From a virus (lineage: Duplodnaviria > Heunggongvirae > Uroviricota > Caudoviricetes), in IMG/VR virus record IMGVR_UViG_3300015155_000024: DNA of 10,852 nt; one strand, given 5' to 3'. A program made the position numbers and the translations under genes. Under the pieces are notes generated by a model, which did not search any database, was not told where the DNA came from, and saw nothing but the letters and a program-made list of their open reading frames with translations. This document shows positions 53 to 8,530 of the stretch, piece after piece (position 1 is the stretch's first letter; every line of letters starts with the position of its first letter).

Positions 53-619
53 ATGACACCACGACAATTACTCGAAGACGTCAAATCCCGCTTCACACCT
101 TTGATTGCGGATGAACCTGCCTTACTGGAATCCCTGCTAAGAAAAGCATTGGGAACCTACCAGGATAGGGCGGGGCACATCAAGCGGATACGCATCACCG
201 ATCAGGCCAGTAAATCACTTGCTTGCCCAGTTGATTTTCTTGCGCTCGTATCGGTTACAGATCACACCGGCGATCTTGTCTACTCCGATGTTTACGATGG
301 GAATATCGAGCTTGAAGATACCCATCGAGCGGTATACCCACTGAATGTGTCATATCTGGCTAATTTGCGTGATATGGATCTGGATAATGGGGATGTGCCA
401 CCTGAAATCATTGGGTTACTTTCTGACTATCTGGAAGTGCTAATCGCGATACCTAACACTGATCGCCTGCGAAGAATATCTATCGCGGGGAAACTCGATG
501 CCAGTAATTTATCCGACGAGAACACGCTGTATCAGCGAAAGCTGGATCTGGAAGAGAAAATGAGCGCAACAAGGGCAATTATCCCGGGAATTGTTCTTTT
601 CTCATCCATGTTGAAGTGA
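53..619 (+). CDS. Hypothetical phage tail/neck-associated protein (188 aa); possibly a tail completion or head-tail joining protein
   Basis: ORF with ATG start and TGA stop at 617-619; same strand and tight spacing with downstream tail genes (next start at 630 with SD GAGGGGG at 618-624). Charged, helical-looking sequence does not resemble a tube protein. Function inferred from position only. Confidence 0.7.
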
Positions 620-629
620 GGGGGCTGAT

Positions 630-1241
630 ATGGGGCTTAATGTTGCTTCAGTAAAGTCTTATGTATCTTCGGCATTAACGACGACATTATTTGGCTCCGG
701 CGTTGGTGAGCGGGAAGTTGGCAAGCTGACGTCAATCATCATGAACAAAATGCTGTTCGCGCAAGGATGGCAGTTCTCTGTCGAAGTTGATGGTCTGGAG
801 GGGGCAGACTTCTTTGCTAAAGACATTACCTACCACGATTACAGCATCGAATATGAAACGATTAAAATCGGCGGAGGGAATATCCTTCAGCCAACGGAGC
901 GTTCGCCTGGGCAGATAACAATGATGGTCAGGGATACCGTTGATGGCCTCGTTTTGGACTGGTTTAAGACGGCAAAAAGTCGGGTGATCAATCCGGACGG
1001 TACCGGGAATATACCGTCTAAATATTTGCTCAATGTGCGTATTTATCGGTTGCTGTCCTCCGGTTTAACCAAACTGGAAAATGAGATGACGGTATTCCCG
1101 GTCACTACCGGCGATGTCACCTATGCGCGGGATCAGGTTACGGAATTTAAGTCATTCCCAATGACCTTCGCGTTGCACAGCACGTTTAACCAATCCTCAA
1201 GTTCTTTAGCTTCCCTTCTGGGCTTTAGTTTTTCGCTTTAA
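630..1241 (+). CDS. Putative major tail tube protein (203 aa)
   Basis: Strong SD (GAGGGGG) 6 nt upstream of ATG. Sits two genes upstream of the tape measure gene. By eye, the stretch FSVEVDGLEG...IEYETIKIGGGN...PGQITMMVRDT...LDWF resembles motifs of phage/contractile-system tube proteins (T4 gp19-like), but this is unverified pattern recognition. Confidence 0.6.
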   Translation: MGLNVASVKSYVSSALTTTLFGSGVGEREVGKLTSIIMNKMLFAQGWQFSVEVDGLEGADFFAKDITYHDYSIEYETIKIGGGNILQPTERSPGQITMMVRDTVDGLVLDWFKTAKSRVINPDGTGNIPSKYLLNVRIYRLLSSGLTKLENEMTVFPVTTGDVTYARDQVTEFKSFPMTFALHSTFNQSSSSLASLLGFSFSL

Positions 1242-1255
1242 ATTAAGGAGCAAGG

Positions 1256-5908: not shown

Positions 5909-6264
5909 TGGCCAACAATAACGAAATTGATCCTTTGCTGACGCTGGAGTTATCCGGCGTAAAAACGTATGAGTCCCAGGAGGAGGCCTGGGGCGCTCGT
6001 TTATATGAGTGGCTAAACACTTATCAGGGTGAGGTATACGGAGATCCGTCATGGGGCAATGTTTTACCGCTGTTTAAACACGAACCGACCAACTTGTCGC
6101 ATGTTCAAATTGCGGTTGAGGCAATGCTGTTGCAAAAACTGACGGTAGATTTACCTGACATACCGATTTCTGGCTTGTCAGTAGCCGAGGGAGATGCTTT
6201 TGATAAGTTGAAAATATCCATTCGTATCAGGGATATAACTATCACACAGGACGTGGTGCTATGA
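5908..6264 (+). CDS. Small baseplate/tail-tip protein (118 aa), possibly gp25/gpW-like wedge protein
   Basis: ATG at 5908 overlaps the TMP stop TGA (5906-5908) by 1 nt; the ORF track start at 5905 is a TTG and probably not the real start. Size and position match P2 gpW/T4 gp25-like proteins; the motif TYQGEVYGDPSWGNVL weakly resembles the conserved gp25 motif. Family assignment is tentative. Confidence 0.65.
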   Translation: MANNNEIDPLLTLELSGVKTYESQEEAWGARLYEWLNTYQGEVYGDPSWGNVLPLFKHEPTNLSHVQIAVEAMLLQKLTVDLPDIPISGLSVAEGDAFDKLKISIRIRDITITQDVVL

Positions 6265-7694
6265 GTAAAACAACACCGACTAAAGACAGTATTCGTGCAG
6301 AGTTTGAAGAGCTTGTCGAGAAAGATTCATTCTGGTCGAAGTTTGTCGGCTCTCAATTTGTCTCGATGCTGACATTGTTTATTACCCAGATTGTCTACAG
6401 GTGCTTTCAGTATGCCGATGCGGCGCTGGCTGAAGGCTTTATATCGACCGCGACGCGGCGTTCCTCTATCCTGGCAGCGGCAGAAACGAATAGTTACGTT
6501 GGTACCAAGCCAACACCGTCATCGGGGATGATTGAGATCACCGCCACAAGTGAAGATGCCCCAGCGGTAATCCCCAAAAATATGCCTTTAATATCTGACG
6601 ACCAGTACCCTTACATGACTATGGATGTATGCAGGTTGGTTGACGGCACCGGTACGGTAGAAGTGGCACAGTTGGAAATCCAGGAGGTGACATATACCGT
6701 TACGGCAGCCAAAGAATTTCTGGAAGTCGTGTTATCAAAGGCTCTCACTGCTGTCTGCTATAAGCTGGAAGTATTCGTGACGACCGATGGTAAGACCACG
6801 CAGTGGTCTTCCAGCACTATGTTCCGGTTAGCCGGTAGTAAAAGCCAGGTCTACGTTGAGTTTTATAAGCCATCCGAGCAGTTGGGGGTTCGATTCGGTG
6901 ATGGGCTAATTGGGCAAATACCGCCAGAAGGCTCGACCATTACACTTAAGGTATGGTGCACCAACGGAGATATAACCCTGGTTGCTGGCCAAAACCTGAC
7001 GCCTGTCGATTCTGCGGCTAATTTAGCTAATTTGATTTCAGTTAAGACAACGACACCCATAACCGCAGGTACCGATGCCGAAACAACGGAGATCACACGT
7101 AATCGTGCACAATATTACCTTGCCTATGATGATCAGGTCGTATGGGGCGGGGACTATACGTATTTTTTGGTGCGTAACATCCCGGGACTGTCCTGGGTAA
7201 AGGCATGGGGCGAAGGCCAGCAAGAGAAATTAGATGGTGCTTATAATGTTCGGAATATCAATAAGATATTTATTTCAGGATGGCATCCAAACAAAAGCCA
7301 GTCAGAGCTTGAAGAAGTGATCCTGGCTGCCTTTAAGAAGGTGCCGAATGAGTTGAACAAGAAATTCTCGTATAAAGAGGTCAGAAAACTCCCCTTTAAG
7401 ATCACTATCACTGGGCGGATATCGGCAAGCCTGACCATTGAGAACGTGACTGATGAGCTGAAGTCGGCACTGGAAACAAAATTTGGGCGTGACTCAACTT
7501 TCTTTGATCCGAACCGTGTTGGCAAGTACATCCTAATCAAGAAAAAAGACGTTTGGGCATTTATCGAAACGCTGGGTTATTTCCGCGACTTTTATCTGGA
7601 ATTTGTCGAGTGGAATGAGTCCAACGGCTTTTACGATTTCGTTTATCTGGATACAGAAAACTCCACCTTTAATATTTCGTATGAGGAGGAGTGA
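6261..7694 (+). CDS. Large baseplate/tail-tip structural protein (477 aa), possibly baseplate J-like
   Basis: ATG at 6261 overlaps the upstream stop (ATGA at 6261-6264), indicating translational coupling. Sits between a gp25-sized gene and the fiber-proximal genes, as for J-like baseplate proteins in P2/Mu-type modules. No unambiguous motif recognised. Confidence 0.7.
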   Translation: MSKTTPTKDSIRAEFEELVEKDSFWSKFVGSQFVSMLTLFITQIVYRCFQYADAALAEGFISTATRRSSILAAAETNSYVGTKPTPSSGMIEITATSEDAPAVIPKNMPLISDDQYPYMTMDVCRLVDGTGTVEVAQLEIQEVTYTVTAAKEFLEVVLSKALTAVCYKLEVFVTTDGKTTQWSSSTMFRLAGSKSQVYVEFYKPSEQLGVRFGDGLIGQIPPEGSTITLKVWCTNGDITLVAGQNLTPVDSAANLANLISVKTTTPITAGTDAETTEITRNRAQYYLAYDDQVVWGGDYTYFLVRNIPGLSWVKAWGEGQQEKLDGAYNVRNINKIFISGWHPNKSQSELEEVILAAFKKVPNELNKKFSYKEVRKLPFKITITGRISASLTIENVTDELKSALETKFGRDSTFFDPNRVGKYILIKKKDVWAFIETLGYFRDFYLEFVEWNESNGFYDFVYLDTENSTFNISYEEE

Positions 7695-8530
7695 TGCAGC
7701 GTTCCTGGTTTAATAACCGGCTTACATCAGCTAAGCAAAAGTCATTGCTCTATAAATCATTGGCTGATTTGGTTCAGTCAATGATGGATGCCTTTGTTGA
7801 CCCATGGTTGGAGCGAATTACCAACCGGAAGTCTATTTTTTCCATGAGCAAGGAGGATCTGGAGACCAGGACAAATGAACTTGGCCAGTTCTTTACTATC
7901 AGAACGTCGAACTCATCTTCCGTTCCGATGTTGTTACAACAGCGTCTTGATGAGATTCACTTTAAGGGGACTGAACGCCCTATAAACCAGACAATTTACC
8001 GCGAATTTAACGGTATTTCTGTTTTATGGGATCCGATATATGCACCGGTGGACCTTGAGCGTCATCCCTATGGCACGGTTCTAATACCAGAAAGCACACT
8101 GGAGACTACCGGCGGCACATTCGGTGAGATGTTTCTGACTTCCAGAGGGATGATCAGTATTCCCATAAACGACCTGGCCCGGACAATGGGGATTACTGGC
8201 ACGATAGATCAGTCCGCAATTACAGAAGAAATTCTCAGAAAGTTTAATCAGTTCGTAAAGCCTCTACTGCCACTGCATATAGTGTTTGATGGGCTTACGC
8301 TCTATTTGTCGGTTGTTGTAAATGAACAGGCCGACATGATCACTTTGAACGAGATTTCTGATACCGAAAAAGCATTCTGCTGGTTTGAAACTTCGGATAC
8401 AACTTCGCTTACTGGAGTTACGTCGATTAGCGCCCCGATCACCGCAACGCCTGGTGGCACTATTGTGAAAGCGACACCTACGTTTGATCGCACACGCGCA
8501 GATGATTTGTTGCTGGATAGCGACGCCTGA
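7694..8530 (+). CDS. Baseplate/tail-fiber-proximal structural protein (278 aa), possibly gpI-like
   Basis: ATG at 7694 overlaps the upstream TGA (7692-7694); the ORF track start at 7691 is GTG. Function inferred from synteny only. Confidence 0.65.
   Translation: MQRSWFNNRLTSAKQKSLLYKSLADLVQSMMDAFVDPWLERITNRKSIFSMSKEDLETRTNELGQFFTIRTSNSSSVPMLLQQRLDEIHFKGTERPINQTIYREFNGISVLWDPIYAPVDLERHPYGTVLIPESTLETTGGTFGEMFLTSRGMISIPINDLARTMGITGTIDQSAITEEILRKFNQFVKPLLPLHIVFDGLTLYLSVVVNEQADMITLNEISDTEKAFCWFETSDTTSLTGVTSISAPITATPGGTIVKATPTFDRTRADDLLLDSDA

What the first reader, a model, noticed from the sequence alone, without database searches (positions are those of the whole stretch)
53..8530. Tail module architecture: baseplate-wedge-like genes follow the TMP but no sheath-sized ORF is present
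The genes after the TMP (118, 477, 278 aa; translationally coupled) match by size and order the gp25/W-like, J-like, I-like wedge set that precedes the fiber in P2/Mu-type contractile tails, and the fiber itself is gpH/Stf-like. Yet the region upstream of the TMP holds only 188-, 203- and 293-aa ORFs, with no 400-500-aa sheath candidate adjacent to the putative tube gene. Either the sheath lies upstream of the window (then 188 aa would be the tube and there are two chaperone-slot proteins), or this is a non-contractile tail using a myovirus-like wedge/fiber attachment set with no hub or spike genes between TMP and wedge. Both arrangements depart from textbook order.
Basis: inference. Interest (0 to 1): 0.5.

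Follow-up and report, generated by a model that had tools for sequence, protein, structure and literature searches.

The report
P1-type split tail operon
This is the well-known tape-measure and baseplate operon of a P1-like phage-plasmid of E. coli, a contractile-tailed phage whose sheath and tube genes sit in a separate operon a few kb upstream; the one new item is strong comparative evidence for an undescribed +1 ribosomal frameshift in pmgB, the gene just before the tape-measure gene.

Summary
The window holds 188-, 203- and 293-aa ORFs, a 1229-aa tape-measure ORF, then coupled 118/477/278-aa ORFs, and no sheath-sized ORF.

The layout is already explained. The window is about 97% identical to phage P1 and 100% identical to an E. 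coli phage-plasmid. It is the P1 late operon pmgC-tub-pmgB-sit-pmgA-bplA-16, followed by R-S.

Cryo-EM structures of P1 assign the roles:
- PmgC: head-tail adaptor.
- Tub: tube-initiator ring.
- Sit: tape measure.
- PmgA, BplA and gp16: wedge proteins, equivalent to W/J/I or T4 gp25/gp6/gp7.

The sheath (gp22) and the real tube (BplB) lie in a second late operon on the same strand. In the identical plasmid that operon ends 5.5 kb upstream (sheath gene 7.4-9.0 kb upstream), behind the lytic replicon and immunity genes. Hub and spike genes lie about 29 kb further upstream in P1. Eight divergent relatives keep gp21-pmgG-bplB-pmgC-tub-pmgB-sit contiguous, so the P1 split is a derived insertion.

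One thing looks new. In 21 lineages a conserved 53-59-aa extension is read in the +1 frame from an invariant TTT CGG in pmgB and ends just before the tape-measure gene. PmgB has a T4 gp26/gp51-like fold.

The parts
3..21 (+). Late promoter LPsit (-22 box AAATGACTA, -10 TAGAAT)
   Evidence: Identical to the annotated P1 LPsit boxes.
53..619 (+). pmgC, 188 aa: head-to-tail adaptor (12 copies on the portal). It is not a tube protein.
   Evidence: 97.3% identical to P1 PmgC. Matches PDB 9ums chain PmgC at E = 5.8e-117. Adaptor role from cryo-EM in PMC12810830. A pmgC deletion gives unjoined heads and tails, PMC9024508.
630..1241 (+). tub, 203 aa: tube-fold protein forming the hexameric tube-initiator ring of the baseplate. 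It is not the helical tube.
   Evidence: 99.5% identical to P1 Tub. Matches PDB 9ay5_A at E = 1.5e-131. Role.
1256..2137 (+). pmgB, 293 aa: essential non-virion tail-assembly protein with a T4 gp26/gp51-like fold, in the chaperone slot upstream of the TMP gene
2036..2041 (+). Candidate +1 frameshift site TTT CGG (PmgB F261-R262); U_UUC re-pairing of tRNA-Phe
   Evidence: TTT in 21 of 21 lineages and CGG in 20 of 21. Other invariant Phe and Arg positions use mixed codons. Codon periodicity flips to the +1 frame exactly here. Stop codons bracket the shift to about 35 nt.
2040..2207 (+). +1-frame extension: 55 codons plus stop, GLPTSFHRWGLKSYQTLVSNLVLYGGIPIQDAERLTESYAFFLLEKLEEKLKPKR*, ending 11 nt before the sit ATG. 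The predicted fusion product is 316 aa.
   Evidence: Conserved as protein in 21 lineages, with no conserved start codon. Six of 7 SNPs among 81 P1-like sequences are synonymous in this frame, and the 3 in the overlap change the amino acid in the pmgB frame.
2219..5908 (+). sit, 1229 aa: tape-measure protein with an SLT lytic transglycosylase domain (aa 847-956, nt 4757-5086)
   Evidence: SLT domain E = 2.3e-27. 96.4% identical to P1 Sit over aligned residues. TMP role.
2321..2890 (+). 297-nt tandem repeat in the sit N-terminal region: 1.9 copies, 81% alike. P1 has one copy.
   Evidence: The two-copy junction is present in up to 137 of 468 matching PLSDB plasmids (upper bound, some rows join two pieces).
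5908..6264 (+). pmgA, 118 aa: wedge protein BW1 and sheath initiator (T4 gp25 / P2 W / Mu gp46 type)
   Evidence: 99.2% identical to P1 PmgA. Matches PDB 9ay5_M at E = 1.7e-75. Role.
6261..7694 (+). bplA, 477 aa: wedge protein BW3, two conformers per wedge (T4 gp6 / P2 J type)
   Evidence: Pfam Baseplate_J and Gp6-like_1st. 99.6% identical to P1 BplA. Matches PDB 9ay5_Y at E = 0. Role.
7694..8530 (+). gene 16, 278 aa: wedge protein BW2 (T4 gp7 / P2 I type) and fiber attachment point
   Evidence: 98.6% identical to P1 gp16. Matches PDB 9ay5_a at E = 7.9e-182. Role.
8560..8578 (+). Late promoter LPs (-22 box AAGTTACTT, -10 TACAAT)
   Evidence: Identical to the P1 boxes.
8609..9043 (+). R, 144 aa: tail-fiber-associated protein, proposed to be T4 gp8-like
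   Evidence: 98.6% identical to P1 gpR. Role.
9055..10852 (+). S, tail fiber, N-terminal constant part. It runs off the window through cixR (about 10706-10725) into the invertible C segment.
   Evidence: Phage_fiber_2 repeats at E = 8e-67. Alignment to the P1 annotation.

Best explanation
The window is the LPsit late operon (pmgC, tub, pmgB, sit, pmgA, bplA, 16) and the start of the LPs operon (R, S) of a P1-like (Punavirus) phage-plasmid of E. coli. P1 has a contractile tail.

Its tail genes are split over several late operons:
- this one (adaptor, tube initiator, assembly factor, tape measure, wedge, fiber);
- 23-22-21-pmgG-bplB(-pmgF) (capsid, sheath, tube-linking protein, tube);
- 26-25-7-24-6-5 (plug, stopper, terminator, hub, spike);
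- upfB/upfC (spike tip).

No sheath ORF lies next to the tube-like gene because the once contiguous module ...sheath-gp21-pmgG-bplB|pmgC-tub-pmgB-sit... was interrupted at the bplB|pmgC junction. The inserted block is the lytic replicon plus immunity I genes (plus sim in P1; hokD and other ORFs in this plasmid). All late operons are still co-expressed from Lpa-dependent late promoters, so gene order no longer needs to follow assembly order; this last step is inference.

Within the operon, pmgB most likely makes two proteins:
- the 293-aa PmgB;
- a 316-aa form made by a +1 ribosomal frameshift at UUU CGG (codons 261-262), which adds a conserved 55-aa tail.

This would be analogous to the G/GT-type tape-measure chaperones. 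The frameshift is inferred from comparative data and has not been shown experimentally.
For: Identity and synteny:
- About 97% nucleotide identity and full collinearity with P1, P7 and RCS47; 100% identity to plasmid p07B21CPO001_B.
- Both late promoters are identical to P1's.
- Proteins are 96-99.6% identical to P1's and match chains of solved P1 structures 9ay5, 9vzk and 9ums.

Roles come from two independent cryo-EM studies and a knockout/proteomics study.

Sheath and tube elsewhere:
- P1 gene 22 lies at 55417-57006 in the LP23 operon.
- In the identical plasmid, a 529-aa ORF 7.4-9.0 kb upstream matches PDB Gp22 at E = 0, and a 169-aa ORF matches BplB at E = 1.4e-110.
- Hub and spike genes 6 and 5 lie in a third operon.

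Ancestral contiguity: eight divergent relatives have gp21-pmgG-bplB-pmgC-tub-pmgB-sit with nothing inserted. JK004 has 1.2 kb at the same junction.

Frameshift: as listed under parts.
Against: Nothing found contradicts the P1 identification.

For the 'derived insertion' reading, no outgroup-rooted phylogeny was built. Polarity is inferred from the majority state plus the different inserts found at the same junction.

For the frameshift:
- No protein-level evidence exists; PmgB was not detected in virion proteomics.
- CGG is not rare in this window's own genes (31 of 158 Arg codons).
- No stimulatory RNA structure is present (z = 0.25).
- The P1 subgroup does have an in-frame TTG (2070) with an SD-like AGGTGG that could start a small independent product.
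Confidence: 0.96

Rival explanations
1. A non-contractile (siphovirus-type) tail that borrows a myovirus-like wedge and fiber attachment set, with no sheath at all.
For: Only the absence of a sheath-sized ORF inside the window.
Against: The same replicon encodes a 529-aa protein that matches the solved P1 sheath chain Gp22 over its full length (E = 0). PmgA is the sheath initiator that bonds to gp22 in the solved baseplate. P1 contraction states have been imaged. No protein in the window hits Dit, Tal or a lambda gpV-type family.
Confidence: 0.01
2. A standard myovirus order, with the sheath gene immediately upstream of the window, the 188-aa protein as the tube, and two chaperone-slot proteins.
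For: A sheath does lie upstream on the same strand.
Against: Immediately upstream are simC/B/A and c4-icd-ant-kilA-repL in P1. In the source plasmid it is two unrelated ORFs, icd-ant-kilA-repL and hokD. The 188-aa protein is the portal adaptor. The tube is BplB, in the sheath operon. Tub is the initiator ring.
Confidence: 0.02
3. Rival for the pmgB sub-claim only: the conserved +1-frame ORF at the pmgB 3' end is a small independent gene of about 46 aa, for example starting at TTG 2070, or is read by another route. It is not a frameshift extension of PmgB.
For: The P1, JK004 and Pantoea lineages conserve a TTG at offset +34 with an SD-like (A/G)GTGGGG just upstream. JK004 annotators called a 29-aa CDS there.
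Against: At least eight lineages have no ATG, GTG or TTG between the upstream +1-frame stop (or the preceding about 30 nt) and the conserved motif: D6, L013, L009, L008, L106, L104, L111 and L010. Conservation of the +1-frame peptide and the periodicity flip begin at TTT CGG, 34 nt before that TTG. Codon-level invariance is specific to F261-R262. The SD-to-TTG spacing of about 3 nt is too short for efficient initiation (my own knowledge).
Confidence: 0.2

Closest known systems
Bacteriophage P1 (Punavirus P1) late operons LPsit (pmgC-tub-pmgB-sit-pmgA-bplA-16) and LPs (R-S-U)
   Same: Same genes, order, overlaps and promoters. About 97% nucleotide identity and 96-99.6% protein identity.
   Different: Sit is 1229 aa here against 1140 aa in P1: one extra 99-aa repeat unit and a 10-aa deletion. 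The constant part of S has 100 extra residues of repeats. The block upstream of pmgC differs: hokD and a YfjT/YkfB-family ORF replace pmgF, rlfAB and simABC.
Simple myovirus baseplate wedge: Mu gp46/gp47/gp48, P2 gpW/gpJ/gpI, T4 gp25/gp6/gp7
   Same: Same gene order (W-like, J-like, I-like, then fiber). Same heterotetramer of 1 BW1, 2 BW3 and 1 BW2 with a core helical bundle. BW1 starts the sheath.
   Different: In Mu and P2 the hub, spike, sheath and tube genes lie in the same contiguous tail cluster (my own knowledge). In P1 they are in other operons. gp16 has no detectable sequence similarity to T4 gp7; the resemblance is structural only.
Frameshifted tail assembly chaperones: lambda G/GT, P2 E/E+E' (Xu, Hendrix and Duda 2004; cited, details from my own knowledge)
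   Same: The gene lies immediately upstream of the tape-measure gene. Two products share an N-terminus. The extension is conserved, has no start of its own and ends at the TMP gene. The protein is essential for tails and absent from virions.
T4 gp26 and gp51 baseplate-hub assembly proteins (Pfam PF12322)
   Same: Fold-level similarity to proteins annotated as this family. Weak, consistent PF12322 hits over PmgB residues about 15-122. Both are non-virion factors needed for assembly around the tape measure (T4 details from my own knowledge). T4 gene 26 also gives two products, 26 and 26'.
   Different: All Pfam scores are below the gathering cut-off (18.4 against 24.5 bits). hhalign against T4 gp26 alone gives only a 17-column CxxC match. 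T4's second product is annotated as a nested CDS sharing the 3' end of gene 26, not a frameshift product.
+1 frameshift sites of E. coli: prfB (CUU UGA C) and UUU-pyrimidine sites (Schwartz and Curran 1997; my own knowledge)
   Same: P-site tRNA re-pairs one base downstream (UUU to UUC), with a slowly decoded codon in the A site.
   Different: No SD element 3 nt upstream as in prfB. An AAGGAG(G) motif is conserved, but 27-42 nt upstream at variable distance. CGG is not rare in this phage's genes.

Membership tests
Punavirus P1 LPsit/LPs late operons | Collinear nucleotide similarity to P1 across all genes | tested here: met
   96% coverage at 96.8-97.7% identity to P1, P7, RCS47 and JL22. The only gaps are the sit and S repeat indels.
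Punavirus P1 LPsit/LPs late operons | Lpa-type late promoters (-22 box plus -10) ahead of pmgC and R | tested here: met
   Boxes identical to P1 LPsit and LPs at 3-21 and 8560-8578.
Punavirus P1 LPsit/LPs late operons | Each product orthologous to the P1 protein | tested here: met
   96.4-99.6% identity. Full-length matches to P1 chains in PDB 9ay5, 9vzk and 9ums.
Contractile-tailed phage (myovirus morphotype) | Sheath protein gene in the same genome | tested here: met
   529-aa ORF at L005 5627-7216, in the plasmid 100% identical to the window, matches PDB Gp22 chains 8jaj/9ay5 at E = 0.
Contractile-tailed phage (myovirus morphotype) | gp25-like sheath initiator and gp6/gp7-like wedge | tested here: met
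   PmgA, BplA and gp16 match the solved P1 wedge chains. BplA also passes the Pfam Baseplate_J and Gp6-like cut-offs.
Contractile-tailed phage (myovirus morphotype) | Contraction observed in virions of this particular element | not testable with these tools
   Shown for P1 itself, not for this plasmid.
Siphovirus tail tip (Dit/Tal) with lambda gpV-like tube | Post-TMP proteins belong to Dit/Tal families; the 203-aa protein is a gpV-type major tube | tested here: not met
   No Dit, Tal or gpV family hit in Pfam or PHROGs. The proteins are wedge subunits and a tube initiator in solved structures.
G/GT-type frameshifted tail assembly chaperone | Gene immediately upstream of the tape-measure gene | tested here: met
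   pmgB ends at 2137, its +1 extension ends at 2207, and sit starts at 2219. The same holds in 21 lineages.
G/GT-type frameshifted tail assembly chaperone | Overlapping out-of-frame ORF, conserved as protein, without its own start codon | tested here: met
G/GT-type frameshifted tail assembly chaperone | -1 slippery heptamer XXXYYYZ | tested here: not met
   The extension is in the +1 frame. The only invariant candidate in the bracketed 35 nt is TTT CGG.
G/GT-type frameshifted tail assembly chaperone | TAC (spiral) fold | tested here: inconclusive
G/GT-type frameshifted tail assembly chaperone | Two protein products demonstrated; binding to TMP and tube | not testable with these tools
   Needs a western blot, mass spectrometry and pull-downs.
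T4 gp26/gp51 hub assembly family (PF12322) | Pfam score above the gathering cut-off | tested here: not met
   18.4 bits against a 24.5-bit cut-off. Ten of 15 homologues hit weakly, best E = 3.7e-4.
T4 gp26/gp51 hub assembly family (PF12322) | Shared fold | tested here: met
   Foldseek against BFVD: 33 hits at E <= 1e-3, the top ones annotated as baseplate hub subunit or hub assembly protein; TM 0.62/0.72. The model is confident (pLDDT 85). T4 gp26 and gp51 themselves were not among the named hits.

The most novel reading that the evidence does not exclude
pmgB of P1 and its relatives is a recoded gene. A conserved programmed +1 ribosomal frameshift at UUU CGG (window 2036-2041) yields a second, 316-aa product carrying a 55-aa C-terminal module. 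That would make PmgB the P1 counterpart of the G/GT tape-measure chaperones, built on a T4 gp26/gp51-like fold. It would link the T4 hub-assembly 'catalysts' to the tail-assembly-chaperone system and add a natural UUU-Y +1 site to the few known in enterobacterial phages. I found no description of it in the P1, P7, D6 or RefSeq annotations or in the searchable literature.
Probability: 0.7. Interest if true: 0.55.

Novelty: already known. Interest (0 to 1): 0.3.

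Why it matters
The architecture puzzle itself does not matter. It is the published gene organisation of phage P1, now backed by atomic structures. The lesson for genome scanning is that tail modules of phage-plasmids can be split by replicon and immunity cassettes, so a missing sheath ORF in a 10-kb window says nothing about tail type.

What could matter is the pmgB recoding signal. P1 is a 70-year-old model phage and the standard transduction tool, and its tape-measure chaperone has never been identified. 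A conserved +1 frameshift would:
- identify that chaperone;
- explain why trans-complementation of the pmgB deletion failed to restore plaque formation, as it also failed for three other pmg deletions (speculative);
- give a testable link between the T4 gp26/gp51 family and tail assembly chaperones;
- correct the annotation of hundreds of P1-like plasmids.

The natural Sit length polymorphism also offers a ready-made test of the ruler model in P1.

Tried and rejected
- hhalign of the PmgB alignment against T4 gp26 alone gave only a 17-column CxxC match (probability 22%). It is not usable as homology evidence.
- The 53-59-aa extension peptides have no Pfam or PHROG match.
- There is no RNA structure beyond chance around the shift site (z = 0.25).
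- The viral-contig scan returned only 97-100% identical P1-like loci. They were useless for divergence but served for the SNP test.
- A 'hungry codon/stop' shift site eight codons downstream (xTT AGA / TGA / TAG / CGA) was considered and rejected. The NGA pattern follows from a conserved Asp codon (GAT) in the +1 frame, and the periodicity already flips at TTT CGG.
- A Ty1-like CTT AGT site in P1 was rejected: it is not at a homologous position in other lineages.
- Independent initiation at TTG 2070, or at GTG 2010 after the AAGGAG motif, was rejected as a general mechanism. Neither is conserved, and +1-frame stops intervene in L010, L015, D6, L102 and L109.
- Transcriptional slippage was rejected because the T run is only three bases (sequence).
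- The 801-nt sit query could not separate one-copy from two-copy forms, so a junction-spanning query replaced it.

Full report
**1. What is in the sequence**

All of these are on the + strand:
- 53-619, 188 aa.
- 630-1241, 203 aa.
- 1256-2137, 293 aa.
- 2219-5908, 1229 aa, with an SLT lytic transglycosylase domain at aa 847-956.
- 5908-6264, 118 aa.
- 6261-7694, 477 aa.
- 7694-8530, 278 aa.
- 8609-9043, 144 aa.
- A fiber ORF from 9055 that runs off the window.

The post-TMP genes overlap their neighbours by 1 or 4 nt. The only ORF in the 400-550-aa range is the 477-aa protein. It passes the Pfam cut-offs for Baseplate_J and the gp6-like helical domain, so there is indeed no sheath candidate in the window.

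**2. Identity**

The whole window aligns to phage P1, P7, RCS47, JL22 and relatives at about 97% identity over 96% of its length. It is 100% identical over positions 1-10844 to the 94-kb E. coli plasmid p07B21CPO001_B.

The curated P1 record maps the ORFs one to one onto pmgC, tub, pmgB, sit, pmgA, bplA, 16, R and S. The late promoters LPsit and LPs fall at window 3-21 and 8560-8578, and their -22 and -10 boxes are identical here. Protein identities to P1 are 96.4-99.6%.

Three length differences exist:
- a second, 81%-similar copy of a 297-nt repeat in sit;
- a 30-nt deletion in sit;
- 300 extra nt of repeats in the constant part of S.

**3. What each protein does**

Six of the proteins match chains of solved P1 structures over their full length:
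- Tub, PmgA, BplA and gp16 in 9ay5/9vzk.
- PmgC in 9ums.
- In the identical plasmid, gp22 and BplB in 8jaj, 8jan and 9ay5.

Two independent cryo-EM studies (bioRxiv 10.1101/2025.07.21.665459; PMC12810830) and a knockout/proteomics study (PMC9024508) give the roles:
- PmgC is the dodecameric portal adaptor.
- Tub is the hexameric tube initiator.
- The helical tube is BplB.
- Sit is the tape measure.
- PmgA is wedge protein 1 and the sheath initiator (gp25-like).
- BplA, in two conformers, is wedge protein 3 (gp6/J-like).
- gp16 is wedge protein 2 (gp7/I-like) and carries the fibers.
- gp26 is the plug, gp6 the hub, and gp5, UpfC and UpfB the spike.

Its tube and 'two chaperone' guesses are not.

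**4. Where the sheath is, and why**

In P1 the sheath gene 22 (529 aa) lies in the LP23 operon 23-22-21-pmgG-bplB-pmgF, on the same strand, 8.8-10.4 kb upstream of window position 1. Between the two operons lie rlfB-rlfA-repL-kilA-ant-icd-c4 and simABC.

In the identical plasmid the sheath gene is 7.4-9.0 kb upstream and bplB is 5.5 kb upstream. Here hokD, repL, kilA, ant, icd and two other ORFs lie in between.

Hub, spike, terminator, stopper and plug genes form a third operon, 26-25-7-24-6-5, about 29 kb further upstream in P1. upfB lies near repA.

Eight divergent relatives were checked by tblastn. They include Aeromonas, Xenorhabdus, an unclassified Enterobacteriaceae bacterium and unnamed metagenome or read-archive contigs, with PmgB 36-64% identical to the window's. 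All have gp21-pmgG-bplB-pmgC-tub-pmgB-sit contiguous, with bplB abutting pmgC; in the Aeromonas locus a 518-aa sheath-sized ORF (not identified further) precedes gp21. JK004 has two small ORFs at that junction. D6 has a repA-like gene between tub and pmgB.

The most economical reading is that the P1 layout arose by insertion of the lytic-replicon and immunity block into a once contiguous tail module. Polarity is inferred, not rooted.

**5. A finding inside the finding: pmgB**

PmgB is the only protein in the window without a solved structure or a settled role. It is essential for tails and absent from virions, and the 2022 study guessed it to be a tape-measure chaperone from its position alone.

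*The fold.*
- Ten of 15 homologues give weak, sub-threshold hits to Pfam PF12322, the family of T4 gp26 and gp51.
- An AlphaFold2 model from the alignment is confident (pLDDT 85, pTM 0.82).
- Foldseek finds 33 viral proteins at E <= 1e-3. The best are annotated 'baseplate hub subunit' or 'T4-like hub assembly protein' (E = 1.5e-8, TM 0.62/0.72).
- Apart from a short loop (247-252), the only low-confidence part of the model is the 0-frame tail, residues 276-293.

*The overlapping frame.* The +1 frame relative to pmgB is open from 1875 to 2207 and stops 11 nt before the sit ATG. Its last 55 or so residues are conserved as protein in JK004, D6, Aeromonas, Xenorhabdus, Serratia, Citrobacter, Pantoea, Chimaeribacter, Buttiauxella and others. 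That makes 21 lineages in all, and in each the extension ends within about 25 nt upstream of, or just overlapping, the tape-measure start codon.

*No start codon.* At least eight lineages have no ATG, GTG or TTG ahead of the conserved part. In several, a +1-frame stop lies 2-20 nt upstream of one particular site.

*The site.* That site is TTT CGG, encoding the invariant F261-R262.
- TTT is used in all 21 lineages inspected and CGG in 20 of 21 (D6 has TTT CTC, which keeps U_UUC).
- The other invariant Phe and Arg positions of PmgB use mixed codons, for example R65 with CGC 11, CGG 6 and CGT 3.
- Per-nucleotide entropy shows the most variable codon position switching at this site. Upstream it is position 3 of the pmgB frame. 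Downstream it is position 3 of the +1 frame.
- An eight-codon dual-coded stretch follows, through the conserved F.P motif.
- In Aeromonas and in the unclassified Enterobacteriaceae locus (L010) the pmgB frame stops two codons after that motif.
- Together these stops bracket the shift to about 35 nt, and TTTC is the only invariant shift-prone sequence in that interval.

*Population check.* Among 81 near-identical P1-like sequences, 6 of 7 variable sites in 2036-2207 are synonymous in the +1 frame. The three in the overlap are non-synonymous in the pmgB frame.

*Interpretation.* I infer a programmed +1 frameshift. Peptidyl-tRNA-Phe would re-pair from UUU to UUC while CGG waits in the A site. The product would be PmgB residues 1-261 plus 55 residues, 316 aa in all.

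*Caveats.*
- There is no protein evidence.
- CGG is not rare in this phage's genes.
- No RNA structure is present.
- An independent TTG start remains possible in the P1 subgroup.
- Searches of the held literature, and of the P1, P7, D6, JK004 and RefSeq annotations, found no description of this. JK004 calls a 29-aa fragment there.

**6. Verdict**

The W/J/I reading and the 'sheath is upstream' alternative are right in substance. The tube and chaperone assignments and the non-contractile alternative are wrong. The architecture is the known P1 organisation, so the finding as posed is already explained and deserves a low score. The modest overall score reflects the pmgB recoding candidate, which is a new variant of a known kind (a frameshifted tape-measure chaperone) and is directly testable.

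Noticed in passing
window 2036-2207 (inside pmgB 1256-2137 and the pmgB-sit spacer): A conserved +1-frame extension of pmgB begins at an invariant TTT CGG and ends 11 nt before sit. It is seen in 21 lineages, lacks a conserved start codon, shows a codon-periodicity flip at the site, and has SNPs that are synonymous in the +1 frame. This is a candidate programmed +1 frameshift and is not annotated in any record examined.
   Followed up: yes
window 2321-2890 (sit N-terminal region): A 297-nt tandem repeat, 1.9 copies that are only 81% alike. P1 has a single hybrid copy, so Sit is 1229 aa here against 1140 aa. Up to 137 of 468 matching PLSDB plasmids carry the two-copy junction (upper bound; some rows join two pieces), so this is a common natural tape-measure length polymorphism. 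If Sit is a simple ruler, tails should be about 13 nm longer (inference).
   Followed up: partly
L005 17558 (= window 2918); L007 3331 (D6): RefSeq PGAP starts sit at window 2918 in the identical plasmid, dropping 233 N-terminal residues including the repeats. The start at 2219 (MERKNA...) is conserved in JK004. The D6 record probably starts sit too far upstream, overlapping the +1 extension; a GTG start further downstream fits better.
   Followed up: partly
window 9676-10020 and 10705-10852: The constant part of S has 100 more residues of 132-nt-type repeats than P1. The window then runs through the Cin crossover site cixR (about 10706-10725 by alignment) into the invertible C segment. Its last 148 nt also match the inverted copy at cixL in P1.
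   Followed up: partly
window 1995-2000, and the equivalent position in the first 11 lineages aligned (27-42 nt upstream of TTT CGG): A Shine-Dalgarno-like AAGGAG(G), encoding Lys-Glu with what I recall to be the less-preferred E. coli codons, is present in 10 of the first 11 lineages aligned (the eleventh has AAGGGGG), at a variable distance from the shift site. It is too far away to act like the prfB SD, and no conserved start codon follows it. Its function is unknown.
   Followed up: no
PmgB residues C88, C91, H95, H221, C241 (window 1517-1978): Invariant Cys and His residues, including a CxxC...H motif, across 15 homologues suggest a metal-binding (zinc) site in PmgB. The geometry in the model was not checked.
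   Followed up: no
L005 9180-14692; L001 (P1) 185-6052; L006 64-1350; L007 970-2494: The bplB|pmgC junction, and tub|pmgB in D6, looks like an insertion hotspot with different cargo in each lineage. P1 carries pmgF, rlfAB, repL, kilA, ant, icd, c4 and simABC. This plasmid carries hokD, repL, kilA, ant, icd and two other ORFs including a YfjT/YkfB-family protein. JK004 carries two small ORFs, and D6 a repA-like gene.
   Followed up: partly
window 53-619, 1256-2137, 7694-8530: The PHROG labels are out of date relative to the cryo-EM structures. PmgC and PmgB are labelled 'head morphogenesis' and gp16 'tail tube protein'. RefSeq calls most of these genes 'hypothetical'.
   Followed up: no
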